From a virus (taxonomy: Duplodnaviria > Caudoviricetes): DNA of 51,518 nt. The translations under genes and the position numbers were made by a program. The stretch is taken from the IMG/VR virus record IMGVR_UViG_3300017960_000020, positions 1-51,518 of that record. One strand, 5' to 3'. The notes under the pieces were generated by a model, which saw only the letters and a program-made list of their open reading frames with translations, searched no databases and was not told the origin of the DNA. Shown here in pieces: positions 4,235 through 18,535 of the stretch; the first letter of the stretch is position 1; each line of letters starts with the position of its first letter.

Positions 4235-4497
4235 GCGCCCTCGGTTCGATCATCGCCACGCGCGGGACCGTCCGCCTGTGGTGCTCCTCCCCCACCTGCC
4301 GCCACGAGTGGGAGGCTGAGACCGTCTCCCAGTACGGTGAGAGCTTCTTGGCTGACGCTGGCGGCGAGTGCACGCGATGCGGCTCGATTGGTACGGCTGA
4401 GGAGCCGGACTTCTACTGCAAGGAGTGCGATCGGGACACGGCGAAGTGCGAGCACGTTCACGGCTCCTGCTGGGTCTGTGGGGAGGCCATCCAATGA
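4231..4497 (+). CDS. Cys-rich zinc-finger protein
   Basis: CSSPTC, CTRC, CKEC and CWVC motifs; overlapping start and stop. Confidence 0.65.
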   Translation: MSALGSIIATRGTVRLWCSSPTCRHEWEAETVSQYGESFLADAGGECTRCGSIGTAEEPDFYCKECDRDTAKCEHVHGSCWVCGEAIQ

Positions 4498-5411
4498 CCC
4501 GCCCCACCCCCCACGTCTGCACCACCGAAGCGGAGTGGCACGCCGCCCGCTGGGAAGGGATCGGAGCCTCCGAGGCCGCCGACCTGATCGAGAAGCCCTA
4601 CAGCCTGTGGGCCGAGAAGGTCGGTCTGGTCGAGCGCAAGCAGCCTAACAACGTCGACCGGCTCGAGGAGGGCCACCTGGCGGAGCCCATGATCGCCGAG
4701 CTGGTCAAGCGCCGGTGCGGCGTGAAGCGGATCCGCCGGTCCTGGGAAGTTCTGGGCCTCGACTCCGAGCCGCATGACGTCGTGTTCTCGGACGCCGAGC
4801 ACGACTGGCTGCGCGCCACGCCGGACTACTTCATTCAGGCCGAAGATGGCTCTAGCGCCGTCTGCGAGATGAAGTTCTGGGATGCCTTCTCCCGCGAGCT
4901 CTGGGTCAACGGCCCCCCGCTCGGGGTGTTCCTCCAGGTGCAGCAGCAGATGGAAGTGCTCCAGGTGCCGCGCGCGCTGATCGCCCCCTACTTCGGCGTC
5001 GGACGGTTCGAGCCGATCTGGGTGGACCGTGAACCGAAGTGGACAGCGCTCCTGCGCCAGCGAGGCTCGGACCTGTGGGCCCGCGTGGCCGCCGGCCGCC
5101 GTGCGCTCGAGGCTGGCGAGGACCCCCATCAGTTCGCACCCGAGGCGGTCTCCAGGCTCGACCTGGACGCTCTCAAGCGCTTCAAGCCGCGCGAAGACAC
5201 GGAGGTCGAGATCCCCCAGGAGCTTGCCGAGCGCTTCGCTGCCGCGCACCGAGCAAGGAAGGAGGCGGACGACGCCTACAGCGACGTTCAGGCCGAGCTT
5301 CGCAAGCGGATGGTCGAGGCCAGCGCAACAGTCGCCACGCACTCGGACGAGAAGCTGGCGACGCTCAAAACGAACGCTCGCGGGACGGTCACGTTCCGGC
5401 CCGCGATCTAA
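4494..5411 (+). CDS. YqaJ/lambda-exonuclease family viral recombinase nuclease
   Basis: EWHAARWEGIGASEAA, GHLAEP, WLRATPD, CEMK and QVQQQM motifs. Confidence 0.9.
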   Translation: MTRPTPHVCTTEAEWHAARWEGIGASEAADLIEKPYSLWAEKVGLVERKQPNNVDRLEEGHLAEPMIAELVKRRCGVKRIRRSWEVLGLDSEPHDVVFSDAEHDWLRATPDYFIQAEDGSSAVCEMKFWDAFSRELWVNGPPLGVFLQVQQQMEVLQVPRALIAPYFGVGRFEPIWVDREPKWTALLRQRGSDLWARVAAGRRALEAGEDPHQFAPEAVSRLDLDALKRFKPREDTEVEIPQELAERFAAAHRARKEADDAYSDVQAELRKRMVEASATVATHSDEKLATLKTNARGTVTFRPAI

Positions 5412-5422
5412 CTCCAGGACTC

Positions 5423-6169
5423 ATGCAAACCGAAACCATGCAGACCCAAGAAGCCCCGCCCAACGGGGATCCCACCCAGGCGTTGATCGCCAAGTTCGGC
5501 TACTTGATCGGGCTCGACCCAAGCCGCGCCCAAGCCGTGCTGATGTCGACCATCATGCCGAGCGGGACGAGCAAGGCCGATGTGGCCGCGTTCCTCGCGG
5601 TGGTGACCCAGTACAAGCTGAACCCGCTGCGGAAGGAGATCTACGCCTTCCCCTCCAAGGGGGGCGGCGTCCAGCCGATCGTCGGCATCGACGGGTGGCT
5701 GAAGATGGCGAACGACCACCAAGCCTTCGACGGTATGGAGGAGGCCTACGAGCACGACGCCGAGGGCAACGTCCTGGCGATCACGGTCAAGGTTTACCGC
5801 AAGGACCGCAGCCGGCCGATCACCGCTACGGAATGGATGTCCGAGTGCAAGCGGAACACCGACCCTTGGCGCACTTGGCCGAACCGGATGCTCCTGCACA
5901 AGGCGACCATCCAGGCCCTGCGCCGCGCCTTCAACTTCTCGGGGATCATGGACCCCGACGAGGCCGAACGCTTGGAGGAGACCCAAGCGCGGACCGTGGA
6001 CGCGAAGGCCACGGCGAAGGCCCCCGCGGAGCACGCGGCCGAGCAGCTCGGGTTGGGCGACGGAGGCGACGACGGCGAGCCGGTCTTCGACGTTGACGGC
6101 GACCGAAGCGCGGCGGACTGGTTCGGGGACGACCCGTTCCAGGGTGGAGACCCGGAGGCGGCGCAATGA
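5423..6169 (+). CDS. bet: Bet/RecT single-strand annealing protein
   Basis: YKLNPLRKEIYAFPSKGGGVQPIVGIDGWLKMANDH, EWMSECKR, PWRTWPNRMLLHKATIQALRRAF. Confidence 0.93.
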   Translation: MQTETMQTQEAPPNGDPTQALIAKFGYLIGLDPSRAQAVLMSTIMPSGTSKADVAAFLAVVTQYKLNPLRKEIYAFPSKGGGVQPIVGIDGWLKMANDHQAFDGMEEAYEHDAEGNVLAITVKVYRKDRSRPITATEWMSECKRNTDPWRTWPNRMLLHKATIQALRRAFNFSGIMDPDEAERLEETQARTVDAKATAKAPAEHAAEQLGLGDGGDDGEPVFDVDGDRSAADWFGDDPFQGGDPEAAQ

Positions 6170-7482
6170 GTGGCACGATCGAACTGGAGGGCATCGGCGC
6201 CGTGGACCACCTGGCTATTCCGATTCCCGAGCGGGGCGGCGTCGTCGTTCTCAAGGGCGGCAACGGCTCGGGTAAGTCCACCGCGCTGCGCGCGACCGAA
6301 CGGATGCTGACCGGCAAGGGGGGACTCGAACCGGCGGACGGCCGGAAGAAGGGCACCGCGACAGGCTTGGGCGTCCAGCTCACGGTCGGGCGCTCGGTCC
6401 GCTCTAAGGGCGAGCTGACAGTACTCGGCGTCTCGGGCACCGACCCGGCGGCGTTCGTGGACCCGGGGATCAAGAGCTCCGAGGCGGCCAACGCGGCGCG
6501 ACTCAAGGCGCTCTGCCGATTGGCTCGCGTGGAAGTCACTCCCGAGACCTTCGGTGCCGCGGCCGAGGCTGCCGGCATCGACCTGGGACGCGAGCTGGAC
6601 GGGGCGGACTTGTCGGACCCTGCGGCCGTCGCCGGACGGCTCCAGCGCGCCGCGTTCGCTCGCGCCCGAGACCTCGAGGGTCGGGCGGCGTCCGAGCACG
6701 CGGAGGCTCAGGGCGCGCTCCAGGCGCTTGAGGGCGCGTCCGTCGCCGAAGATGGTCAGACCGTCGCGGACCTGGCATCGAGCCGGGAGGAGCGAGCGCA
6801 GCGCGTGCAGGAGCTGAAGGCGCAGCGACAAGCCTCGGCTGAGCGCGCCAAGCTCGTGGCCGAGCGCCGGCAGCAGATCGAGCAGCTCGAAGCCCGCCTG
6901 GAAAGGATGAAGGTGTGGCTTCAGAGCGACGAAGCCCAGCCGCTGGAGGCTCCGACCGAGGAACAGATCGAGACCGCGATCGGCGAGGTCGCCAAGGCTG
7001 ACGACGCCCTGGCTCAGGCGGAGCAAGCGATCGCCAACCGGGAGCGCCGAGCGTCTGCGCTCGAGCGGCTGGACAAGGCCAAGGCTATGCAGGCGGAGGC
7101 CGAGCGGCGACGTGAGGCCGCGGGCACGTTCGACGCGGCGCTTATGGACGCCCTCGGGGCGGCCTTGCCGCCGGCGCTGCGGATCGCCGACGGCCAACTC
7201 CAGGCCATCACCGACCGCGGACCGATCGACTTCGAGCAGTTGTCTCAGGGCGAGCGCTGGAGTCTGGCGCTGGGCATCGCCATCGCGGCATCCGGCGGAG
7301 CGACCTTGATGGCGGTTCCGCAGGAAGCCTGGGAAGGGCTCGACCCGGACAACCGGGCGGCGCTGACCAAGGCCGCGCAGGCCAAGGGGGTCGTGATCTT
7401 GACGGCCGAGGCGGACAGCGGGCCGTTGCGGTCTGAGGTCTTTGGGGCATCCGGCTCGTCAGCCACCCAACGGGAGGACTAG
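6166..7482 (+). CDS. SbcC/Rad50-like ABC-type ATPase with coiled coil
   Basis: Walker A GGNGSGKS, long central coiled coil, signature LSQGE, atypical Walker B region VPQEAWEGLD. Confidence 0.8.
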   Translation: MSGTIELEGIGAVDHLAIPIPERGGVVVLKGGNGSGKSTALRATERMLTGKGGLEPADGRKKGTATGLGVQLTVGRSVRSKGELTVLGVSGTDPAAFVDPGIKSSEAANAARLKALCRLARVEVTPETFGAAAEAAGIDLGRELDGADLSDPAAVAGRLQRAAFARARDLEGRAASEHAEAQGALQALEGASVAEDGQTVADLASSREERAQRVQELKAQRQASAERAKLVAERRQQIEQLEARLERMKVWLQSDEAQPLEAPTEEQIETAIGEVAKADDALAQAEQAIANRERRASALERLDKAKAMQAEAERRREAAGTFDAALMDALGAALPPALRIADGQLQAITDRGPIDFEQLSQGERWSLALGIAIAASGGATLMAVPQEAWEGLDPDNRAALTKAAQAKGVVILTAEADSGPLRSEVFGASGSSATQRED

Positions 7483-7705
7483 ACTCCGTGCGTCTTGCTT
7501 CGGTTTGCAGCCGCCTAGCCGGTCCGAATCAGGTCCTGGAACGGGCGTCGTCGCTAGGGGCGGCGTCCACTCATCGAGCAGGGACCGACGGAAGGATCCG
7601 TTGTCGGTCCGGGGGAAGGACCGCGCCGAGTGGGAGACGCGCGCGGTCGCAAGTTCGCGGCGCGCTGCCCCGTCGTATCGGGTCCGAGGGCAGCACTTCA
7701 AACAG
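7483..7705 (+). ncRNA. Putative structured RNA: four hairpins plus a possible pseudoknot
   Basis: Stems 7510-19/7553-64, GGACCGAC 7582-89/GTCGGTCC 7603-10, GACCGCGC 7619-26/GCGCGGTC 7641-48, GCTGCCC 7664-70/GGGCAGC 7688-94. CCACTC 7567-72 is complementary to loop GAGTGG 7628-33. Confidence 0.5.
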
Positions 7706-7823
7706 TCAGGGAGCCGAGCGTTTGCCGTCGTGCGTGCTCCCCGGCCCCACGTTTCGAGTGCTTGCGTGGGAGTTCTGCTACGCCATCCGCCGGCATGGTG
7801 AATCGACGGCAGCCGGCACATTC
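7706..7823 (+). ncRNA. Tandem structured RNA, unit 1 (three stems, two pseudoknots)
   Basis: P1 GGGAGC/GCTCCC, P2 CCCACG/CGTGGG, P3 CGCCAT/ATGGTG. P1 loop GCCGTCG pairs with CGACGGC 7804-10; P3 loop GCCGGC pairs with GCCGGC 7812-17. Confidence 0.75.
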
Positions 7824-7825
7824 GA

Positions 7826-7943
7826 CCGAGGGGGCGAGCGTGAGCTGTCGTGCGCGCCCTTCGGCTTCCCGCGGGTCGGTTCCTCGTGGGACGTTCCTGA
7901 CGCCGTCCGCCGGCGCGGCGCAACGACAGCAGCCGGCACATCC
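7826..7943 (+). ncRNA. Tandem structured RNA, unit 2 (diverged copy at +120 nt)
   Basis: P1 CCGAGGGGGCG/CGCCCTTCGG, P2 TCCCGCG/CGTGGGA, P3 CGCCGT/GCGGCG. P1 loop GCTGTCG pairs with CGACAGC 7924-30 (compensatory change); P3 loop GCCGGC pairs with 7932-37. Confidence 0.75.
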
Positions 7944-7948
7944 AACCC

Positions 7949-8707
7949 TTGACGACGCGACCTGCAACGATCCAGCGGGCTCTCTGCACCGTCGAGGGCT
8001 GCGACCGCTACCGCCACGCGCGGAAGCTCTGCCAGATGCACTACATGCGCTGGCGGCGCGGAGGCGGGCGCCCAGAGCGTGTTGGAGGTCCGGCGATCCG
8101 CACCAAGGCCGTCAGCCTCAGCGCGGAGCACCAGACCCCAGAGCGGATCCGCCAGCTCTCCCGCTGGGTCTGCCACCTGGGCGAGCGCTTCTTCGCCAAG
8201 TCGAGCACCCGCGGTCGCGTGCTGCTGGTCAGCCGCTACGGGCTCCTGGAGATCGGACGCCCGACCCTCCAATCCATGCGCCAGCGCGGCTTCGTCGAGG
8301 TCACCAAGACCGACGTGCGCCCCGGCGTCAACCAGATCGAACTCACCCCAGCCGGGCGTAACGCCCTACCGAACTTCGCCCCCACCCCCGTCGACCCCAT
8401 GGACACCAAGTTCCACTGCCTGTCGGACGTGCTCTGCGCCGGCGCCCCGCCCGACCCGAAGAAGGTCGACCGCTACTTCGCCAACGGCTACGTGAAGCCC
8501 CGGGGCGCGTCACGGGACCCGATCTCGGACGGCTTCCTGGGGACGCTGTTCCTGCGCGTCGGCGACGAGTGGCGCGAGGTCGCTGCGCTCCAGGAGGTCG
8601 GAGACGAGATGCTCTGGCACATCGACGGCGCGGACGGCGAGCCGGAGGCGATGCACGCGGATCAGGTGGTCGAGCGGTATTTGGGGATGAAGGAGCTGGC
8701 CGAGTGA
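7949..8707 (+). CDS. Putative DNA-binding protein (N-terminal Cys/His zinc motif plus MarR-like winged-helix segment)
   Basis: CTVEGCDRYRHARKLCQMHYMRWRRG; LQSMRQRGFVEVTKTDVR...IELTPAGR. Start codon uncertain (TTG). Confidence 0.55.
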   Translation: MTTRPATIQRALCTVEGCDRYRHARKLCQMHYMRWRRGGGRPERVGGPAIRTKAVSLSAEHQTPERIRQLSRWVCHLGERFFAKSSTRGRVLLVSRYGLLEIGRPTLQSMRQRGFVEVTKTDVRPGVNQIELTPAGRNALPNFAPTPVDPMDTKFHCLSDVLCAGAPPDPKKVDRYFANGYVKPRGASRDPISDGFLGTLFLRVGDEWREVAALQEVGDEMLWHIDGADGEPEAMHADQVVERYLGMKELAE

Positions 8708-9104: not shown

Positions 9105-11393
9105 ATGGACGCCTTGACCTTGCCTGAACCCCTCCAGACCACCATCGAGCCCCAAGACGGCCCGATGTTGCTGCGAACCGTCGTCCCTGTCCCGAAGGGC
9201 GCCCCGCCCAACTTGGCGTTTGAGCGTGGCGGCAAGGTCGTCACGACTTCGGCGGTGCCTTGCCGGTTCGACGGTGAGGGGAACCCACTGGCGTACAAGC
9301 TGACCGCGGCGAGCCCGGCGGGGTCGATCGAGGATGAAGTCCGGGTGGTGGCGGCTGGGCACCTGCCGCCGGCGAACGTGAAGGTCCACCCGCAGACCTG
9401 GGATCTGGTGAAGGGGGGCGGGATCGAGTTGACCTACGACGTGCAGGACGCCGGCGCATCTGTGGAGCACACCCACAACCTGCTGGCCCCGACCGAAGAG
9501 TTCGCCGAGGTCGCGCACCAGGTGTCCACCGACTACACCTGGGGCCGCATCGGCCGCGAGGTCAGCCGAGAGATGGTCCGGGGCCTCGGCTGCCGCGCTT
9601 GGCTGGCGGCCTACACGGACCTCCCGATCGTCGAGCTGTCGCTGGTGATCTCCAACGGGGCACCGGGGGCGGTGACGGAGGACTTCGGCGATCTGGCGCT
9701 CAAGCTGCCCGAAGGCTGGACCGCCGCCCTTGCGCTGAACACGCCGCAGATCAGCGTGGTCGGGAACGTGATCGACCTGGTCTCCGACACGAGCCTGCCG
9801 GAGTCGACCACCCTCCCCCAGCTCCACGAGATCCACCTCCGCGCCATCATCTGCCCGATCGACTGGCTGGAGGCCGCCCAGGCCATCGCTCGAGGCGTCG
9901 GCTGGGGCGTGGCGCACGGACCCTGGAGCTACTTCTCGGAGCAGACGCCCTGGTACACGGCGCATGGGATGCGGTTGCCGAGCGCGGATGAGCTGCCGAC
10001 GAGCCTCGACCCGGCCTTCATCGTCCAGACTCGCTGGGCCGATCGGGCTGCGGCGCTCGCTGGGGGCATCAAGGCGGACGAGACCAGCCCCGGCCCCCTC
10101 GGCTTCGGCGCCCCGCTTGGCGGACCTGACGGCGGCTTCGGCGGCGGCGAAGGGCTCCACGTCATCCCGTACCCCGAGTGCGCGATCGCCGGAACGCGCA
10201 AGGGCCTCCAGTACCTCCGCGCCGAGCTCTACGGCCAGCTCTCCCGCGGCACCGGGCACCTCTACGACGTGGGCGGTCTGCCGATGGACCTGGACGCCTA
10301 CGCGGACGAGCACGACGGGCACCTATTCAACTACCACCTGCCCCGCCGTGGACCGTTGGGCCACGAGTGCTTCCCCCCCGGCTACGACAAGAAGAACGAC
10401 CCGCTGGGCTTCAAGGCCTCGGAACCGGACCCCCCGGACTCCAAGCTCCACGGCTACGGCTGCGTAGACGAGCAGCACGGGACGCGCTTGGTCTCGTCGG
10501 CGGTCGCCCTGGCGGCGCTGGACGCGGATCCGATCGCGATGCACACGCTGCAAGCGAGGGCTGTGGCGGTCCGGGCGAGTCAGTGGGATGGCAAGGGGGG
10601 GCAGTACGCGGCGGAGTTGACGTACCTGACGAACCTGGCGATCGAAAACCACGGCGAGGGCGGGCCGGTCAACCGCCGGGAGGCCTGGAACCTATGGACT
10701 CTTGCTGAGGCCCAGGCGCGCGGCCTTGGGGACTTCGATCAGTGGTGTGGAAAGCTCGGGACCGTGTTGAGCCTCCTGATGACTTCGGACGGCCAGTTCG
10801 GGCGAAAGCACACCGGCAGCCCCGCCAAGGAAGTCTCGCCTGAGGGAGCATCGAAGCTGCGAGGCATCAACAGCCCGTGGGGTGACGCTCTGATTGGGTG
10901 CGCGCTCCGTGCGAGCGAGGCTTCCCGCTATGACGTGCCGGCCGAGGCGACCGATCGGCTTGAGTACTCCCTCCGAGCCCAACTCTGGGCCTGGCCCGTC
11001 GGCTACAACGCCCCGCTCTACCGCCTCGCCATCGCCGACGAGAACCAGCAGCTCTACGACTCCCTGGGCGACGTCCCCGAAGACGGGATCGTCCGAAAGA
11101 AGAACGGCGACCTCCGCACAGACGACTTCTACCTGCCGGCGCTCCTCGCCATGGCAGTCCAGACCGGCATCGAGACATCGGACTTCGAGACCCTCCAGCT
11201 CGCCGCCCGCATCGCCCTGAAGCTCACCGGAGACGGGGACCTCATGCGCTACATCGAGCAGCGCGGGGTGGATCACCTTCGGATGACGGCCTACTTGGTG
11301 CCGTTGGCGAAGATCGCGCCCCCCGGGCTAATTCAGCAGTTGGGGAAGGAGGGGAAGGTTGCGGAGCCTGTGAAGGTGGGAGGGGAGGTTTGA
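9105..11393 (+). CDS. Large hypothetical protein (762 aa), possibly carbohydrate-active
   Basis: Long GC3-biased ORF. N-terminal TVVPVPKG...CRFDGEG loosely resembles the N-terminal barrel of PcRGLX-like lyases; aromatic/His-rich helical C-terminal half. Confidence 0.8.
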   Translation: MDALTLPEPLQTTIEPQDGPMLLRTVVPVPKGAPPNLAFERGGKVVTTSAVPCRFDGEGNPLAYKLTAASPAGSIEDEVRVVAAGHLPPANVKVHPQTWDLVKGGGIELTYDVQDAGASVEHTHNLLAPTEEFAEVAHQVSTDYTWGRIGREVSREMVRGLGCRAWLAAYTDLPIVELSLVISNGAPGAVTEDFGDLALKLPEGWTAALALNTPQISVVGNVIDLVSDTSLPESTTLPQLHEIHLRAIICPIDWLEAAQAIARGVGWGVAHGPWSYFSEQTPWYTAHGMRLPSADELPTSLDPAFIVQTRWADRAAALAGGIKADETSPGPLGFGAPLGGPDGGFGGGEGLHVIPYPECAIAGTRKGLQYLRAELYGQLSRGTGHLYDVGGLPMDLDAYADEHDGHLFNYHLPRRGPLGHECFPPGYDKKNDPLGFKASEPDPPDSKLHGYGCVDEQHGTRLVSSAVALAALDADPIAMHTLQARAVAVRASQWDGKGGQYAAELTYLTNLAIENHGEGGPVNRREAWNLWTLAEAQARGLGDFDQWCGKLGTVLSLLMTSDGQFGRKHTGSPAKEVSPEGASKLRGINSPWGDALIGCALRASEASRYDVPAEATDRLEYSLRAQLWAWPVGYNAPLYRLAIADENQQLYDSLGDVPEDGIVRKKNGDLRTDDFYLPALLAMAVQTGIETSDFETLQLAARIALKLTGDGDLMRYIEQRGVDHLRMTAYLVPLAKIAPPGLIQQLGKEGKVAEPVKVGGEV

Positions 11394-13290: not shown

Positions 13291-13571
13291 CCCCCTCCCC
13301 TGCCCGCACCTGGATCCCCATCCACCCCCACACCGGGGGAGCGTCGAACCGCGCCCGCAGGCTGGCCGCCCAGCTCGAGGCCCGCGGCGGAGCGCTCTAC
13401 CGCAAGAACACCTCCACCCCTGGCGCCGCGTGGGCGATCCGCGCGCCTGGGATGATCGACACCGTCGCCCAGACCTTGCGGGAGGTTGAGGGGCTCCTGT
13501 TGACCACCAAAAAACCATGCCCGTCGCACACAAGCCCGACGACGAGACCAAGGACGTGGTCCGCGGCCTAG
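13287..13571 (+). CDS. Hypothetical protein
   Basis: GTGA overlap; its 3' end overlaps terS. Confidence 0.45.
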   Translation: MTPSPARTWIPIHPHTGGASNRARRLAAQLEARGGALYRKNTSTPGAAWAIRAPGMIDTVAQTLREVEGLLLTTKKPCPSHTSPTTRPRTWSAA

Positions 13572-13942
13572 CGCGCTCCGGCGTCCCCCACGTCGAGATC
13601 GCCAAGGCCCTGGAGATCACCAAGCCGACGCTCTACAAGCACTACTCCCAGATCCTGAAGCTGGGCGCGAAGTGGGCGGACGCCAAGGTCGTGAACGGCC
13701 TGTTTCACAACGCCACGGTCGAGGGCAACGTCACCGCCCAGATATTCTGGCTGAAGGCCCGCTGCGGCTGGCGCGACCGCGACCCGGTCCAGACCCACAT
13801 CCACGCCGGCGCCGAGTCAGCCGAGGGTAAGACGCTCATGTCCGCGCTCAAGGCCGCCAAGGAGTACAAGCCGGACGAGCAGGACGAGGAGTTCTTGCGG
13901 GCCCTGGAGAAGCGCGGCTCGGGAGATCCGGCCCGGAACTGA
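13517..13942 (+). CDS. terS: Terminase small subunit
   Basis: HTH IAKALEITKPTLYKHY, GNVTAQIFWLKARCGWRD; directly upstream of terL. Confidence 0.85.
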   Translation: MPVAHKPDDETKDVVRGLARSGVPHVEIAKALEITKPTLYKHYSQILKLGAKWADAKVVNGLFHNATVEGNVTAQIFWLKARCGWRDRDPVQTHIHAGAESAEGKTLMSALKAAKEYKPDEQDEEFLRALEKRGSGDPARN

Positions 13943-13945
13943 CCC

Positions 13946-15472
13946 GTGGCGGCGAGAGCCAAGAGGGCCAAGCGGCCCAAGAAGGCCCTGCCCGCGATCG
14001 ACCTCGAGCGGCTTGCGGAGGACATCCACAAGCCCGGAGAGGCCGGTGCGCGCGCGGCGTGGCGCCTTCAGAAGCTGATCCAACACGACCCGATCTGGGC
14101 CGCCAGGCGCCTGTACGGGATCAACCTCTGGGAGAAGCAGCGCGAGGGCCTGCGGATGATCTGGGACCACCCGCGGGTCGGGTGCCAGGCCGGCAACAAC
14201 GTCGGCAAGTCCTACTTCGCCGCCACCGCGGTCCACATCTGGATGTCCGCGTGGCCGGACGCCAAGGTCGTGACCACGGCGAACACCTGGGCGCAGGTGG
14301 AGTCCGTCCTGTGGTCTGAGATCGCGACGCAGCACGCCAACGCGCCCATCCCGATCGGCGGACGGATGCTGAAGACGGAGTTCCAGCCGAACTCCAACAT
14401 GCCCGGCTGGGTGGCCCTGGGGTTGTCCACGAACCGCTCAGACTCGTTCGTCGGCCGCCACGCGGAGCACCTGCTGGTAATCTTTGACGAGGCTCAGGGT
14501 ATCGAGGCGTCGTTCTGGGAGGCGGCGGAGACGCTGGCGAGCTCGGCCGGTTGCCGGATCTTGGCGATCGGGAACCCGGTGCGGCGTTCGGGGCAGTTCT
14601 ACGACGTCTGCCGCGGCAAGGTCCCGGGCTGGAAGTCGCTGCGGATCTCCTGCCTGGACCATCCGAACATCGTGCACGGCCGCGACCCGAAGACCGGGCA
14701 ACTGCCGATCCCGGCCGCGGTCTCCCCCGAGTACGTCGAGGGAAAGCGTCTGGAGTGGGGCGAGGACTCCCCCACCTGGATCGCCCGCATCGAGGGGCGC
14801 TTCCCGCCCGCCTCCGAGCGCGCGCTGGTGCCCGAGGATCTGCTGGATCGCCAGGCCCACGCCATCGTCGAGGGCCTCCCCGGCCGCCGCATGGGCGTCG
14901 ACGTGGCTCGCCACGGCTCGGACTCGAATGTCGCCGTGCTCCTCATCTACGGCCGCGTGGCCGCCGTGCACCGCTGGCGGGAGCGAGACCTGATGAAGAC
15001 CGCCGGCTTGGTCGTGCGCCTCATGCAGCGCTGGGAGGTCGCGCCCCGCCTGACCGGGATCGACGTGGGGATGGGGGCCGGCGTGATCGACCGTCTCCGC
15101 GAGTTGGGGCACCCCGTCTGCGAGATCGACTTCGGCGGCAAGGGCGGCCTGGGAGCCGAGGGGATGCACGCCCAGCTGGTCGGGGAGGACCGCCGCTTTC
15201 TCAATGCCCGGTCCCGGTACTTCTGGACGATCCGGGCGATGCTCGAGGCCAACATGCTCTCGATCCCGCGGCGCTGGGAGAAGCTGTGGCAAGATCTGGG
15301 AGCGCTGGAGTACGACTACAACGAAGCAGACGCGCTTTTCGTAACGTCCAAGAAGCAACTCCGCGAGATGCTTGGGCGATCCATTGACGACGCGGACGCT
15401 TTGGTGTGCGCTATAGCGGCTGGGCAAGAGGAGCGCGAGCGGGGGCCGCGCTTCGCCTTCCCGGCAGCGTGA
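13946..15472 (+). CDS. terL: Terminase large subunit
   Basis: Walker A AGNNVGKS, Walker B VIFDEAQG, ILAIGNP, nuclease MGVDVARHGSD and DDADAL. Confidence 0.95.
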   Translation: MAARAKRAKRPKKALPAIDLERLAEDIHKPGEAGARAAWRLQKLIQHDPIWAARRLYGINLWEKQREGLRMIWDHPRVGCQAGNNVGKSYFAATAVHIWMSAWPDAKVVTTANTWAQVESVLWSEIATQHANAPIPIGGRMLKTEFQPNSNMPGWVALGLSTNRSDSFVGRHAEHLLVIFDEAQGIEASFWEAAETLASSAGCRILAIGNPVRRSGQFYDVCRGKVPGWKSLRISCLDHPNIVHGRDPKTGQLPIPAAVSPEYVEGKRLEWGEDSPTWIARIEGRFPPASERALVPEDLLDRQAHAIVEGLPGRRMGVDVARHGSDSNVAVLLIYGRVAAVHRWRERDLMKTAGLVVRLMQRWEVAPRLTGIDVGMGAGVIDRLRELGHPVCEIDFGGKGGLGAEGMHAQLVGEDRRFLNARSRYFWTIRAMLEANMLSIPRRWEKLWQDLGALEYDYNEADALFVTSKKQLREMLGRSIDDADALVCAIAAGQEERERGPRFAFPAA

Positions 15473-15485
15473 GAATCCCCACGCC

Positions 15486-15749
15486 ATGTCTGAGAATCCC
15501 CGTCCCTCGCACCAAGGCTTCGCGCTCGTCCCCAAGTGGCGCACGACCATGGTGTACTCGACGGAGGTTCCCGGAGGGGAGGCAAGGGTGATCTTCGCGG
15601 AGTGCGACAAGACCGGGTCCTCCCTGGAGGGCTATCTGGAGCGCATCGGCGACGGCAAGTGGGATGGACAGCAGACGTTCATCGCCCCCGATGGTGCCAG
15701 GTTCAGCCACGAAGCTGACCTGATCGAGCACCTGCGTCGCCAACGATGA
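15486..15749 (+). CDS. Hypothetical protein
   Basis: Fills the terL-portal gap; ATGA overlap with the portal start. Confidence 0.6.
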   Translation: MSENPRPSHQGFALVPKWRTTMVYSTEVPGGEARVIFAECDKTGSSLEGYLERIGDGKWDGQQTFIAPDGARFSHEADLIEHLRRQR

Positions 15750-18535
15750 CCAGAGCCCTCAGCCGAACCAGCCAAGCGCGCACCCCGCGCCTCGCGGTCC
15801 CCACCCAGCGGGCCACCGCCCACGAGATCAAGAGCCTGCAGCAGTGGGCCAAGAGCAAGCCGTCGAAGCGGTACGCGATGGGCGCTGAGGGGGCGCTGGT
15901 CTCCCCCCTGCGGCAGATCCCGTGGATCTACGCGGCGATCCGCAAGCTGTGGAGTGCAGTGGGTGTGGCCCCGCTGAAGTTCCGGGTCGATCAGGACCCC
16001 GAGAGCAACGATCTAGCGCCGACGGATCCGCTGGTGCGCCTGTTCGAGCGGCCGTCGCCGACGATGAGCCGCAAGGAGTACCTGACCCAGGTGGTCCAGT
16101 TCACCCAGACCACGGGCGAGGCGTTCCACGTCTTCCACGACGCGGAGGGTAGGGTGATTCGGCCGCTGGACGACGGCCTGGACGCCCCGATCCCGATGCC
16201 GGCGCAGATCACGGTCCGCCAGGGCGGCGGGCGCCTGGGGCTGCAGTACGAGCGCGGGCTGCCGAAGTCCTGGCGCTTCTCGGACGAGGAGGGCTCCCAC
16301 GAGATCCCCTTCGCCGCGGGCCTGAACGTCCGAATGCCGTCCGAGGAGGACAGGTACCGGGGCCTGGCGCCGCTGGCGCCCGTGCTGGGCATCGGGGAGG
16401 CGATGTTCCTGGCCGAGCTGATGAACCGGAAGCAGGCGAGTCGGGGCGGGCTGTCGGGTCTGGCGATGGTGAACAAGACGCGGACCCGGGACGACGTCTA
16501 CGAGACCATGCAGGAGATGGCCGACCGGGTGCAGGACTCGCTCGCGGACGGCCGGATCCCGTACATCGAGGGCGAGATCGACTTCAAGAAGCTCGTCGAC
16601 TCGCACCGGGAGATGGCGTATTCGCGGCTGTCCGAGCTCGGGCGCAAGGATATCTCGGCCGTGTTCGGGGTGCCGGACGCCGTGCTGGGCATGGGGTCGA
16701 GCAACTACGCGACCTTCGCCGGCGAGATGCGGGGCATGTGGGAGACCACGGTCCGTGATCTGCAGTGCATGATCGAGGACGCGATCAACTGGCACTTGAT
16801 CCCGCGGCTGCGAGTCGGGAGCCGAGAGGTGCAGGCCTGGGCGTACTTCGACAACTCGAAGGTGGCGTGGCTCCAGCCGGACTACGAGGAGCTCGGGCGG
16901 CAGGCCCGGGGTTTGATGGCGGTCGGCGTCCCGCGGCGCGCGGCGCTCGATCGGGTGGGCCTAGTCGAGGTCGAGGACACGGAGTTCGACGAGATCCCGA
17001 TGTTGGAGGGAGGCCTGGAGTCCTTCGCCGAGGCGGTCCGCGGCTCTGGCGACGAGTCGGCGCCAGGGCTCTCGCCTGAGCAAGCCGCAGAGTTGCGCGC
17101 GATCCTGCTGGACGTGGGCAAGGGCGCGCTGTCGCCCGAGGCTGCCGTGCTGTTGATCGCGTCCGCGCTGCCGATCGAGGAGGCGGACGCCCGCAAGATG
17201 GTCGAGGCCATCGAGATCAAGGAGCCCCAGCCGGTGCCGGCGGCGCTACAGAACCAGCCGCCGCCCGTGTCGCCTGGCCCGCCCGAGGAGCCCGACCAGG
17301 AGCGCGCCGCGCGCCCGTTCGAGATCCGCCTGTCCCCCCGGCTAGAGACCCGGACCCGCATGGTCTCCCAGACCCCCCAAGCCGAGCGGGACGCGATCTA
17401 CGAGGAGTTGGAGGCTCGACGCGAGGAGGGCGACTCCAAGATCAGCCGCGCGGTCCGCCAAGTCTGGCGCGAGGCCAAAGAACGCCAGCTCGAGCACCTG
17501 CGCGCCTTCGCTGCCGGTGGTGGGTCGCGCCTCCCCCGCCGATCGCTCTACGGCGAGGACCGCGGGATCCGCCTGCTGGGGTCCGAGTTGCGCGACCTCG
17601 CCAAGGCGATCCGCGCCGACCGGGAGCAGGGCGAGCAGCTCGTGCCCATCCTCGACTGCTGCGGCCAGGAGATCGCCGCCTGGTGGGCGCCGGTCGAGGA
17701 ACGGCAGCGCAACTGGTTCGCCGACCACGGCAACCTGGCCAGCCTGCCCGGTGGCCTGCGCCGCTTGGCGGACGTGGCCGTGTTGCGCGAGGCGGACCCG
17801 AACCTGTCTGAAGCCGAGATCGAGGCCCTGTTGGTCCTGGGGAGCCCGGAGTGGGCCAAGGAGATCGCGGAGGCCTTGGAGCCGGTGTTCCTCGACGTGC
17901 TGGGCGACGCGGTCCGCCGGGCGAACTCGGACCTCTCGATCCCGTACTTGGCCGAGCCGGACGCCGTCTTGCTGCGTCTGGCGCGGGAGAACCGGATCAA
18001 GCTGGCCCGCGACATCCAGGGCACCCTGGCGACTCGCGTGCGCTCGGCGATGGTTCGGACCCTGAGTGAGGGGCCGGCGACCGTGACGGGGATCCGGGAG
18101 CGCGTGCGCGAGACGCTCGCCGAGCTCGAGGAGACCGTCGAGGACCAGTTCGGCAAGGCCAACGACCGGGCGCTGACCATCGCGCGGACCGAGACGGCCT
18201 ACCTGGACAACGCCGCAGAGTTCCGCACCAGCGAGCTAGGCCGCGACGCCGGCGAGTTCCTGACGCACGAGTGGCTCGCAGCCTCCCGCAACTCGCCTCC
18301 CACCGGCCGCACCCGCCCGACCCACGTTGAGGTGGATCGGACAGTCCAGTTCATCGGCCAGGCGTTCCGCGTCGGCAAACACCTCCTGCTCCACCCGGGC
18401 GACAAGCAGGTCGACGCCCCCGAGGAGACCATCAACTGCCGCTGTGCGCTGCGCCGCCGCCGGCTCCAGACCGACCTCGACGAGGGTCTGATCGACCAAG
18501 CCACCTTCGACCGCCTCCAGAACGGGGCCGCCTGA
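15746..18535 (+). CDS. Portal protein fused to a MuF/SPP1-gp7-like head morphogenesis domain
   Basis: HK97-portal motifs (WIYAAIR, YRGLAPL, ISAVFGVP..LG..SNYAT) in the N-half; C-terminal RALTIARTET, TRPTH and HPGD...EETINCRC. Confidence 0.9.
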   Translation: MTRALSRTSQARTPRLAVPTQRATAHEIKSLQQWAKSKPSKRYAMGAEGALVSPLRQIPWIYAAIRKLWSAVGVAPLKFRVDQDPESNDLAPTDPLVRLFERPSPTMSRKEYLTQVVQFTQTTGEAFHVFHDAEGRVIRPLDDGLDAPIPMPAQITVRQGGGRLGLQYERGLPKSWRFSDEEGSHEIPFAAGLNVRMPSEEDRYRGLAPLAPVLGIGEAMFLAELMNRKQASRGGLSGLAMVNKTRTRDDVYETMQEMADRVQDSLADGRIPYIEGEIDFKKLVDSHREMAYSRLSELGRKDISAVFGVPDAVLGMGSSNYATFAGEMRGMWETTVRDLQCMIEDAINWHLIPRLRVGSREVQAWAYFDNSKVAWLQPDYEELGRQARGLMAVGVPRRAALDRVGLVEVEDTEFDEIPMLEGGLESFAEAVRGSGDESAPGLSPEQAAELRAILLDVGKGALSPEAAVLLIASALPIEEADARKMVEAIEIKEPQPVPAALQNQPPPVSPGPPEEPDQERAARPFEIRLSPRLETRTRMVSQTPQAERDAIYEELEARREEGDSKISRAVRQVWREAKERQLEHLRAFAAGGGSRLPRRSLYGEDRGIRLLGSELRDLAKAIRADREQGEQLVPILDCCGQEIAAWWAPVEERQRNWFADHGNLASLPGGLRRLADVAVLREADPNLSEAEIEALLVLGSPEWAKEIAEALEPVFLDVLGDAVRRANSDLSIPYLAEPDAVLLRLARENRIKLARDIQGTLATRVRSAMVRTLSEGPATVTGIRERVRETLAELEETVEDQFGKANDRALTIARTETAYLDNAAEFRTSELGRDAGEFLTHEWLAASRNSPPTGRTRPTHVEVDRTVQFIGQAFRVGKHLLLHPGDKQVDAPEETINCRCALRRRRLQTDLDEGLIDQATFDRLQNGAA

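What the first reader, a model, noticed from the sequence alone, without database searches (positions are those of the whole stretch)
7706..7943. Two tandem 120-nt double-pseudoknot RNA units with compensatory changes: candidate new RNA class
Seen: two diverged copies exactly 120 nt apart keep the same architecture of three stems. The P1 loop pairs with a 3' tail (GCCGTCG/CGACGGC in unit 1, GCTGTCG/CGACAGC in unit 2: a C-G to U-A covariation). The invariant P3 loop CCGCCGGC pairs with the adjacent GCCGGC. P1, P2 and P3 differ in sequence but keep pairing (e.g. CGCCAT/ATGGTG vs CGCCGT/GCGGCG). Unpaired motifs GAGCGT, GTTC and AGCCGGCACAT are conserved. I cannot match it to a riboswitch or ribozyme I know. 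Hypotheses (inference): tandem riboswitch, ribozyme, exonuclease-blocking RNA, put-like antiterminator, or a P1 c4/P4 CI-like antisense element whose two loops bind adjacent targets just before the next start codon (7949).
Basis: partly seen in the sequence, partly recalled or inferred. Interest (0 to 1): 0.9.

Follow-up and report, generated by a model that had tools for sequence, protein, structure and literature searches.

The report
Tandem structured RNA candidate in phage
Two diverged 120-base copies of a non-coding element sit just before a phage gene and probably fold as RNA, but the element is known only from this phage lineage, where close relatives carry none, one or two copies, so its fold is only partly supported and its function is open.

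Summary
The repeat is real. Units 7706-7825 and 7826-7945 align without gaps (77 of 120 identical). They lie in a 466-nt gap with no codon-position signal, in a complete ~69% GC phage record, and end 3 nt before the TTG start at 7949.

No Rfam family matches. Pattern and protein scans of IMG/VR, GTDB genomes and JGI metagenomes found no homologue.

60 of 62 cells pair, with four double compensatory changes. With only two sequences the support is modest: column-shuffle p is about 0.03-0.04, and MFE z-scores are not significant. The helices 19-25/99-105 and 76-81/90-95 are robust. P1 has covariation. The second pseudoknot (GCCGGC palindromes) has none.

Contigs from other metagenomes add new evidence. 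One relative changes unit 1 only at model-unpaired positions or to a G-U pair (9 listed changes). Two relatives in one run carry no unit and exactly one unit between the same flanks. The relatives' ATG start is homologous to TTG 7949.

My reading is a lineage-specific, modular, dispensable plus-strand RNA domain in the leader of ORF 7949, probably acting in cis (confidence about 0.35). A DNA-level site, a trans-acting RNA and a functionless duplication remain open. Interest is moderate.

The parts
7706..7825 (+). Unit 1 of the tandem element (120 nt)
   Evidence: Direct repeat with 120-nt spacing. Scores 140.6 bits with covariance model R1, which was built from the units themselves. Helices in unit coordinates: 4-9/31-36, 19-25/99-105, 41-46/60-65, 76-81/90-95, 84-89/107-112.
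7826..7945 (+). Unit 2 of the tandem element (120 nt). It ends 3 nt before the TTG start.
   Evidence: 132.1 bits. 77 of 120 positions are identical to unit 1.
7724..7730 (+). 5' strand of the long-range helix of unit 1 (GCCGTCG). It pairs with 7804-7810 (CGACGGC). The unit 2 equivalents are 7844-7850 and 7924-7930.
   Evidence: 7 of 7 pairs form in both units, with one C-G to U-A double change. The helix is kept by RNAalifold and appears in both single-unit MFE folds.
7781..7800 (+). P3 hairpin of unit 1 (CGCCAT / loop CCGCCGGC / ATGGTG). The unit 2 equivalent is 7901-7920.
   Evidence: 6 of 6 pairs form in both units, with one double change and two one-sided G-U changes. Kept by RNAalifold.
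7812..7817 (+). Downstream GCCGGC of unit 1, complementary to the P3-loop GCCGGC at 7789-7794. The unit 2 equivalents are 7932-7937 and 7909-7914.
   Evidence: The sites are invariant and palindromic, so there is no covariation and the pairing partner is ambiguous.
7483..7705 (+). Upstream part of the non-coding gap, including hairpin 7582-7610. It is not a third unit.
   Evidence: No significant alignment to the units: scores 15-18 against a shuffled mean of 17.3. The local hairpin folds at -17 kcal/mol, and two changes in a relative (7586 C>T, 7605 C>T) keep its pairs as G-U. In the relatives of run X7, 7578-7654 is replaced by 86 other letters.
7949..8707 (+). Downstream ORF (252 aa, TTG start): an N-terminal Cys/His zinc motif plus an orphan C-terminal part
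   Evidence: The codon-position GC signal matches this frame. PHROG HNH-endonuclease families match residues 8-42 only. 2164 library proteins match only the N-terminal motif. The relatives' ATG is homologous to this TTG.
6166..7482 (+). Upstream gene: P-loop / SMC-like ATPase that ends the RecE-RecT-ATPase block
   Evidence: Weak Pfam AAA_23 and AAA_29 hits. Weak PADLOC PtuA- and LmuB-like ATPase hits.

Best explanation
Each 120-nt unit is an independently folding RNA domain, transcribed on the plus strand as part of the leader of ORF 7949.

The fold. The core is a long-range 7-bp closing helix (unit positions 19-25/99-105) around two hairpins (P2 41-65, P3 76-95). The 5' flank (4-9) probably pairs into the junction (31-36), which makes a first pseudoknot. 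A second pseudoknot, between the P3-loop GCCGGC and the 3'-tail GCCGGC, is possible but unproven.

The module. The domain is lineage-specific. It arose or spread by duplication and deletion between short direct repeats, and it is dispensable.

Inferred function. It acts in cis on the downstream message. The 3' strands of the folded unit next to the gene lie 12-25 nt upstream of an SD-less start codon. There they could limit ribosome access, or act as a compact barrier that changes mRNA decay. Extra copies would add redundancy.

What is shown: the repeat, its non-coding nature, uneven constraint, pair-preserving substitutions and copy-number variation. What is inferred: transcription, the fold and the cis action.
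For: - The element is non-coding and on the same strand as all neighbouring genes.
- 60 of 62 model cells pair. There are 4 double compensatory changes (2 in P1, 1 in the long-range helix, 1 in P3), and 5 one-sided changes are all absorbed as G-U.
- Conserved helices and compensated helices exceed column shuffles (fraction of shuffles reaching the observed count 0.037 and 0.031).
- The long-range helix and P3 are recovered independently by RNAalifold and by the MFE folds.
- Differences avoid paired columns (15/62 vs 28/58, p 0.008) and cluster in the P2 loop (p 0.001).
- Strand sense: the model has 5 G-U cells and no A-C cell on the plus strand.
- In an independent relative (run X10, a 497-nt contig covering 7453-7927, 26 differences), 9 changes are listed in unit 1. 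Eight are at model-unpaired positions and one turns G5-C35 into G-U. Two changes in the upstream hairpin are also C>T opposite G.
- Unit 2 ends 3 nt before the start codon. That start is confirmed by a homologous ATG, with the same 8-codon N-terminus length, in relatives.
- Many starts in a rough GC3-based gene list of this phage lack a Shine-Dalgarno sequence, so nearby RNA structure could matter for initiation. This last step is inference.
Against: - Only two sequences, plus a partial list of one relative's changes, are available. The model was derived from those same two sequences.
- 13 rows of the difference table were not shown. Up to 8 of them belong to the X10 contig and cannot be placed.
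- MFE z-scores are not significant on either strand. The model's nested parts (-24.2 and -15.0 kcal/mol) are far above the MFE (-48.3 and -54.4).
- In ~70% GC sequence many alternative helices exist. One search finds competing helices 21-28/88-95 and 28-33/87-92, and 7 conserved helices on the minus strand.
- A relative lacks the element altogether yet keeps the gene, so any cis function is non-essential.
- No promoter-like or terminator-like site was found in 7300-8200.
- No homologue was found in any collection.
Confidence: 0.35

Rival explanations
1. The element works at the DNA level. The units would be protein-binding or regulatory DNA, for example operators or an autoregulatory region for the downstream zinc-motif protein, or a replication or recombination site. 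The conserved blocks would be binding sites and the inverted repeats would be half-sites.
For: - There are four GCCGGC palindromes at fixed positions (7789, 7812, 7909, 7932), two per unit and 23 bp apart. About 0.4 would be expected in 240 nt at the genome-wide rate (85 sites in 51.5 kb).
- P3 is a 20-bp imperfect palindrome, which is operator-like.
- The element lies directly upstream of a gene whose product has a zinc motif and weak winged-helix-like leads (Atlas TM 0.31-0.36, all under the tool's bar).
- It sits inside a DNA-metabolism module of methyltransferase, HNH, resolvase, RecE, RecT and ATPase.
- Copy number of repeated binding sites often varies (recalled general knowledge).
Against: - Compensatory changes that keep complementarity between segments 80 nt apart (C-G to U-A), and inside P1 and P3, are not expected for protein half-sites.
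- Every imperfection is G-T rather than A-C on the plus strand (5 vs 0). The relative's stem changes are C>T opposite G (3 vs 0 G>A). This points to a single-stranded plus-sense molecule.
- The motifs occur nowhere else in the phage.
- GCCGGC is neither enriched nor avoided genome-wide (85 vs 85.3 expected).
Confidence: 0.2
2. The repeat is a functionless, diverged tandem duplication of spacer DNA. The apparent helices and covariation would be what a careful reader can find in any 70% GC repeat.
For: - MFE z-scores are not significant.
- Column-shuffle support is only about 0.03-0.04, and that is before allowing for post-hoc choice of the model.
- The minus strand gives as many conserved helices (7 vs 5).
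- Near relatives have zero or one unit.
- No homologue exists elsewhere.
- The gap evolves about as fast as the adjacent coding sequence in X10 (26 differences in 475 nt, against 7 in 138 nt).
Against: - Divergence is very uneven. 12 of 13 positions differ in one segment, while runs of 9 and 13 nt are invariant (windowed clustering p 0.001).
- Paired columns change half as often as unpaired ones (p 0.008).
- Both copies have kept the same blocks despite 36% divergence, which far exceeds the ~5% strain divergence.
- The independent X10 changes fall in the same loops and linkers.
Confidence: 0.2
3. The units are processed into stable small RNAs that act in trans. Each unit would be released and would bind a host or phage protein or RNA (a decoy or sponge, or an antisense regulator like P1 c4 or P4 CI).
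For: - The architecture is modular and independent of context, and copy number is variable.
- Unpaired motifs are conserved (GAGCGT, TGCG, ACAT).
- The self-complementary GCCGGC loops could mediate RNA-RNA contacts.
- By recall, tandem or expandable RNA repeats serve as decoys in phages. Pseudo-ToxI is the example I have in mind; I did not read that paper here.
Against: - No complementary or repeated target for any 16-mer of the gap was found elsewhere in the phage with <=2 mismatches beyond chance-looking hits in coding sequence.
- No match to the Rfam C4 family or to any other family.
- No promoter-like or terminator-like site brackets the units.
- The available data show no processing sites.
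Confidence: 0.12
4. The units form a tandem ligand-sensing riboswitch that controls ORF 7949.
For: - Conserved unpaired nucleotides are framed by covarying helices.
- The element sits immediately upstream of a start codon.
- By recall, tandem arrangements are known for glycine and glutamine riboswitches.
Against: - No known class matches.
- Unit 1 has no expression platform of its own, and no terminator was found.
- Relatives have 0 or 1 unit in front of the same gene.
- The downstream gene is an orphan with no metabolic link.
Confidence: 0.06
5. The units are a type III toxin-antitoxin-like antitoxin array, with ORF 7949 as its toxin.
For: Tandem RNA repeats that may form pseudoknots lie directly upstream of a protein gene. 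That layout is the one described for type III loci (PMC3401426, abstract and passages read).
Against: - The repeat is 120 nt, against 31-62 nt (toxIN) and 40-48 nt (cptIN) (PMC3401426 Table 2 passage).
- No terminator lies between the repeats and the gene; only 3 nt separate them.
- ORF 7949 matches no Pfam or PADLOC family of that kind.
- A relative keeps the gene with no repeat at all, which a toxin would not tolerate.
Confidence: 0.02

Closest known systems
Flavivirus exoribonuclease-resistant RNAs (xrRNA1/xrRNA2) and dumbbell elements of the 3' UTR
   Same: These are tandem, diverged duplicates of a compact domain. By recall, a multi-helix junction is locked by two pseudoknots, one between the 5' flank and the junction and one between a hairpin loop and the 3' tail. 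The model here has the same order of strands: 5' flank with junction, and P3 loop with tail. I saw only the search listing and the start of the abstract of PMC13483245 and PMC7603331. The structural details are recalled.
   Different: The unit here is 120 nt, against about 70 nt. The first pseudoknot is 6 bp rather than 2-3 bp. There is no sequence or covariance-model similarity to any Rfam family. The host is bacterial, with no Xrn1. Exonuclease resistance is untested. The second pseudoknot here has no covariation.
Type III toxin-antitoxin antitoxin arrays (ToxI, CptI, TenpI)
   Same: Tandem direct repeats that encode RNA pseudoknots lie immediately upstream of a protein gene (PMC3401426, abstract and passages).
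   Different: The repeat length is 120 nt against 31-62 nt. The copies are only 64% identical. There is no intervening terminator and no ToxN-like toxin. The gene persists without repeats in a relative.
REP/BIME-type intercistronic palindromic elements of enterobacteria (recalled; no paper read here)
   Same: Both are structured, non-coding modules inside operons whose copy number differs between close strains. Such elements can act as barriers to mRNA decay.
   Different: REP units are about 35-40 nt, are simple hairpins, and occur in hundreds of copies per genome. This unit is 120 nt and multi-helix. It occurs only at this one locus in the phage, and the motif scan of 185,579 species genomes did not find it.
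Tandem riboswitches (glycine; glutamine/glnA in marine cyanophages) (recalled)
   Same: Two similar aptamer-like domains lie in series in a 5' leader, with a pseudoknot-containing fold, in marine or phage settings.
   Different: There is no match to these or to any other Rfam family. There is no expression platform. The copy number varies, including zero. The downstream gene has no metabolic role that could be assigned.
P1 c4 / P4 CI antisense immunity RNAs and HK022 put RNAs (recalled)
   Same: These are small structured phage RNAs embedded in an operon leader, and they act through exposed loops.
   Different: There is no Rfam C4 hit. No loop-complementary target repeats occur elsewhere in the phage. 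No promoter-proximal position can be shown.

Membership tests
Any Rfam 15 family (4227 models) | Covariance-model score at or above the family's gathering threshold | tested here: not met
   No match in the whole window at gathering thresholds. At E<=10 over 7400-8050 there were only two chance hits, mir-Ro6-3 at 7580-7612 and MEG8_1 on the minus strand at 7970-8004. Neither lies on a unit.
Type III toxin-antitoxin antitoxin array | Short tandem repeats (31-62 nt in toxIN, 40-48 nt in cptIN), 1.9-5.6 copies | tested here: not met
   The repeat is 120 nt, in 2.0 copies that are 64% identical. The ranges come from the Table 2 passage of PMC3401426.
Type III toxin-antitoxin antitoxin array | A palindromic terminator between the repeats and the toxin gene | tested here: not met
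   No terminator-like site was found in 7300-8200. Unit 2 ends 3 nt before the start codon.
Type III toxin-antitoxin antitoxin array | A downstream ToxN/CptN/TenpN-type endoribonuclease toxin that needs its antitoxin | tested here: not met
   ORF 7949 has no Pfam hit at E<=0.01 and only a weak zinc-finger hit at E<=10. It has no PADLOC family. A relative keeps the gene with no unit.
Flavivirus-type xrRNA | Sequence and structure match to the curated xrRNA models | tested here: not met
   No Rfam hit of any kind falls on the units.
Flavivirus-type xrRNA | A junction locked by a 5'-flank/junction pseudoknot and a loop/3'-tail pseudoknot | tested here: inconclusive
   The strand order of the model fits. 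P1 (2 double changes) and the closing helix (1 double change) have covariation, but the loop-tail helix is invariant. The xrRNA topology itself is recalled, not read here.
Flavivirus-type xrRNA | Blocks a 5'-3' exoribonuclease | not testable with these tools
   This needs an RNase J or Xrn1 digestion assay.
P1 c4 / P4 CI-like antisense RNA | Loop sequences complementary to target sites in the same operon or elsewhere in the phage | tested here: not met
   16-mers of the gap were searched on both strands of the window with <=2 mismatches. Only scattered single hits inside coding sequence were found. There is no Rfam C4 match. Shorter loop-target pairings cannot be excluded.
Known riboswitch classes in tandem | A match to an aptamer model, plus an expression platform | tested here: not met
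   No Rfam match. No terminator-like site.
Protein-coding repeat (40-residue tandem domain) | Codon-position composition bias, and substitutions concentrated at third positions | tested here: not met
   GC by position is flat in the gap (0.68/0.70/0.68), against GC3 of 0.85-0.93 in the neighbouring genes. Differences fall 16/14/13 over the three positions.

The most novel reading that the evidence does not exclude
The unit would be the first member of a new class of phage RNA. It would be a compact fold locked by two pseudoknots, with the same strand topology as flaviviral xrRNAs, duplicated in tandem, and acting as a directional barrier to bacterial exoribonucleases (or as a protein-binding decoy) to tune the fate of the downstream message. 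Its gain and loss between close strains would mark it as an accessory RNA module.
Probability: 0.08. Interest if true: 0.85.

Novelty: new variant of a known kind. Interest (0 to 1): 0.45.

Why it matters
Structured non-coding RNAs of phages from uncultured, high-GC marine and sediment hosts are almost unexplored. If the fold is real, this is an RNA domain with no relatives in Rfam. It is modular and duplicated, and it is gained or lost between strains that differ by only ~5%. That is how accessory protein genes behave, and it would make the element easy to test, because nature has already supplied 0-, 1- and 2-copy versions in front of the same gene. If it is not real, the case shows how easily helices with 'covariation' can be read into a diverged 70% GC repeat from two sequences alone.

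Tried and rejected
Homologue hunts. All found nothing real.
- blastn (distant mode) of 7483-7960 against 50,697 phage records: no match.
- IMG/VR pattern scans returned 13, 26, 99 and 0 loci. By inspection the hits were chance matches or lay in coding sequence, and nhmmer found no match beyond the fished motif.
- The best nhmmer hit, L020 (E 0.0044), lies at the end of a RusA-like ORF and is chance. L017 was also inspected and rejected.
- A three-block pattern against GTDB species genomes returned 84 loci in unrelated taxa. None was real by nhmmer.
- A two-block pattern against JGI metagenomes returned 10 loci, all chance.
- The search for related loci with the two flanking proteins found no relatives.
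- The search for related loci with RecT found 9 loci at 44-52% identity with no unit.
- The search for related loci with TerL found 3 loci. L243 (58% TerL identity) shares only TerS and TerL and has no unit.

Other checks.
- RNA expression: no RNA holder is listed among the 13 runs. All four runs laid were DNA contigs, so nothing can be said about transcription.
- A third degenerate unit upstream: rejected.
- Extra copies elsewhere in the phage: none.
- Restriction-site logic for GCCGGC: rejected, 85 sites against 85.3 expected.
- A shared promoter-like motif between this gap and other gaps: none.
- Function of ORF 7949: no PDB sequence relative. No Pfam, NCBIfam or PADLOC family. The word-index search found only the protein itself. 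The full HMMER search matched only the N-terminal motif. The Atlas gave only weak leads under its bar.
- The 762-aa ORF at 9105: no family and no PDB relative.
- X9's 36-nt gapped match to 7827-7862 (8 inserted letters) was judged uninformative.
Full report
SETTING

The window is a complete IMG/VR virus record of 51,518 bp (CheckV 100%) with about 69% GC throughout. It has no tRNA. Genes run almost entirely on the plus strand.

Upstream of the finding lie, in order:
- a DNA methyltransferase, an HNH endonuclease and a Holliday-junction resolvase;
- a RecE-like exonuclease (4425-5411) and RecT (5039-6169);
- a P-loop/SMC-like ATPase (6166-7482).

Downstream lie:
- a 252-aa ORF (7949-8707) and an unassignable 762-aa ORF (9105-11393);
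- TerS (13517-13942), TerL (13946-15472) and the portal gene (15746-18535).

The nearest GenBank phages share only ~32% TerL identity. By the run listing, the phage DNA occurs in sediment, seawater and plankton metagenomes of nine studies.

THE OBSERVATION

The repeat is real. The repeat finder gives two families with exactly 120-nt spacing (63 nt and 36 nt, each 75% identical). The ungapped alignment of 7706-7825 with 7826-7945 has 77 of 120 identical columns.

The 466-nt gap 7483-7948 is non-coding. GC by codon position is flat there (0.68/0.70/0.68), while both flanking genes show strong third-position bias. The 43 differences between the units fall 16/14/13 over the three positions, even though 120 is a multiple of three and long spurious ORFs cover the gap.

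There is no third degenerate unit upstream. There is no further copy anywhere in the phage, by BLAST, by motif or by covariance model with filters off.

IS IT A STRUCTURE?

- 60 of 62 cells form standard pairs.
- Four pairs change on both sides and stay paired: 4/36 and 7/33 in P1, 21/103 in the long-range helix, and 80/91 in P3.
- Five one-sided changes are absorbed as G-U.
- Two cells break: 9/31 and 44/62 in unit 2.
- Sliding the 3' partners by 1-3 columns drops pairing to 35-53%, with 0-1 double changes. That control is biased, because the model was read from these same sequences.

A fairer null counts every helix of >=6 bp that is perfectly conserved in both units, then shuffles alignment columns. 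It gives 5 observed against a mean of 1.62 (0.037 of shuffles reach 5). Three helices carry a compensatory change, against a mean of 0.64 (0.031).

The same script shows competing conserved helices (21-28/88-95 and 28-33/87-92). It also finds as many conserved helices on the minus strand (7, but only one with compensation).

RNAalifold keeps the long-range helix 19-25/99-105 and P3 76-81/90-95, and replaces the rest with small helices.

Thermodynamics do not help. MFE z-scores of the single units are -0.37 and +0.62 on the plus strand and about 0 on the minus strand. The nested parts of the model are far less stable than the MFE.

Constraint is clearly uneven.
- Differences are half as frequent in model-paired columns (15/62 vs 28/58, Fisher p 0.008).
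- 12 of 13 consecutive positions differ in the P2 loop (p 0.001 under random placement).
- Runs of 9 and 13 nt are invariant.

My reading by helix:
- The long-range helix and P3 are well supported.
- P1, and so the first pseudoknot, is reasonably supported.
- P2 is plausible, but its register is ambiguous.
- The second pseudoknot (GCCGGC with GCCGGC) is only a complementarity between invariant palindromes. These could equally pair between units or between molecules.

NEW EVIDENCE FROM RELATIVES

(a) Run X10 holds a 497-nt contig that covers 7453-7927 without gaps, with 26 differences. Nine listed differences fall in unit 1, at unit positions 35, 37, 39, 49, 55, 68, 69, 71 and 73. Eight are unpaired in the model. 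The ninth turns G5-C35 into G-U, the same state as in unit 2. In the upstream hairpin 7582-7610, the two stem changes (7586 and 7605) are both C>T opposite G. So every change in a predicted stem is of the kind that only a plus-sense single strand tolerates. Caveat: 13 rows of that table were not shown, and up to 8 unplaced differences belong to this contig.

(b) Run X7 holds two co-occurring relatives. Their contigs both join the same downstream-gene contig, and their depths (14.1 and 10.8) roughly add up to its 27.8.
- One runs from 7655-7698 straight into a short spacer and an ATG start. It has no unit.
- The other has 7655-7734, then 47 unalignable letters, then 7902-7939, then the same spacer and ATG. 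That is 29+47+38 = 114 nt, exactly one unit with a diverged middle.
- Copy number is therefore 0, 1 or 2 between the same flanks. The junctions share short direct repeats (…GCAC(A)TT…), which suggests gain and loss by slippage or unequal recombination (inference).

(c) The relatives' ATG is followed by eight codons before the shared sequence begins at 7973, the same number as after the window's TTG at 7949. This confirms the start codon and shows that the gene caller's 223-aa form is too short.

The letters of the one-unit variant's middle were not returned, so the third sequence could not be used for covariation.

HOMOLOGUES AND KNOWN FAMILIES

Rfam gave nothing. Eight IMG/VR scans, one scan of 185,579 species genomes, one scan of JGI metagenomes, a blastn search of GenBank phages and covariance-model searches of related loci found no homologue. 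Every pattern hit was a chance match or lay in coding sequence. That includes the best one, L020, which lies inside a RusA-like ORF.

The downstream protein is an orphan apart from a ~30-residue N-terminal Cys/His motif. That motif occurs, often in several copies, in 2164 library proteins. PHROGs files it under HNH endonucleases. The remaining ~200 residues have no relatives and only weak winged-helix-like leads below the tool's bar.

WHAT IT MOST LIKELY IS

The balance favours a plus-strand RNA domain: compensatory and G-U-only changes, uneven constraint, independent variant data, and the sense-strand location. It is modular and dispensable.

It abuts an SD-less start codon. Many starts in a rough GC3-based gene list of this phage lack a Shine-Dalgarno sequence. 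The 3' strands of unit 2 lie 12-25 nt upstream of the start. For these reasons I take a cis effect on initiation or decay of the ORF 7949 message as the best single guess (0.35).

The rivals:
- A DNA-level site such as an operator (0.2). It gains from the palindromes and the possible DNA-binding product. It loses on covariation and strand asymmetry.
- A functionless duplication (0.2). It gains from the weak statistics, the lack of homologues and the zero-copy relative. It loses on the uneven divergence.
- Trans-acting small RNAs (0.12) and a tandem riboswitch (0.06). Both remain possible.
- A type III antitoxin array. Its defining features, as given in PMC3401426 (passages), were tested and not met.

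The strand topology resembles flaviviral xrRNAs, which also occur as tandem duplicates. That comparison is recalled, not tested. I keep it as the novel case (0.08).

VERDICT

The interpretation as a candidate structured RNA is reasonable but over-confident. The 'double pseudoknot' is half supported. 'New RNA class' cannot be claimed from one lineage.

The most useful new fact is the natural 0/1/2-copy series. Interest is 0.45. The supplementary tables of the papers consulted were not needed and were not seen.

Noticed in passing
window 7949-8707: The database form of this protein is 223 aa and starts at ATG 8036. That start cuts through the N-terminal Cys/His zinc motif (residues ~10-40), which is the only part with relatives (2164 hits, often 3-12 copies per protein). 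Relatives' contigs have an ATG homologous to TTG 7949, so the 252-aa form is the likely product.
   Followed up: partly
window 7578-7654: In both X7 relatives this stretch, which includes hairpin 7582-7610, is replaced by 86 unrelated letters. The 44 nt that follow (7655-7698) are identical to the window in one of them. The gap is therefore a mosaic of exchangeable modules.
   Followed up: no
whole window, gene starts: Many starts in a rough GC3-based gene list lack a Shine-Dalgarno sequence, and several are instead preceded by ...ACCC or ...GACC(C) just after the previous stop codon. This suggests a host with weak SD use and frequent translational coupling.
   Followed up: no
window 6166-7482: The ATPase that follows RecE-RecT has weak similarity to SMC/MukB-like proteins and to the ATPases of the Septu (PtuA) and Lamassu (LmuB) defence systems. 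Its role next to a RecET pair is unclear.
   Followed up: no
window 9105-11393: A 762-aa ORF with strong coding signal has no hit in Pfam, PHROGs, NCBIfam, PADLOC or PDB sequences.
   Followed up: partly
L244 (IMG/VR fragment, 8010 nt): This fragment carries TerL residues 281-508 at 100% identity and a portal at 99.9% identity to the window's. It is the same phage assembled in another IMG/VR record, but it does not reach the element.
   Followed up: yes
L017 5650-5800: An unrelated IMG/VR contig has the words CCCTGAGCGTCT repeated about 125 nt apart in a non-coding-looking stretch. It is not homologous to the units.
   Followed up: partly
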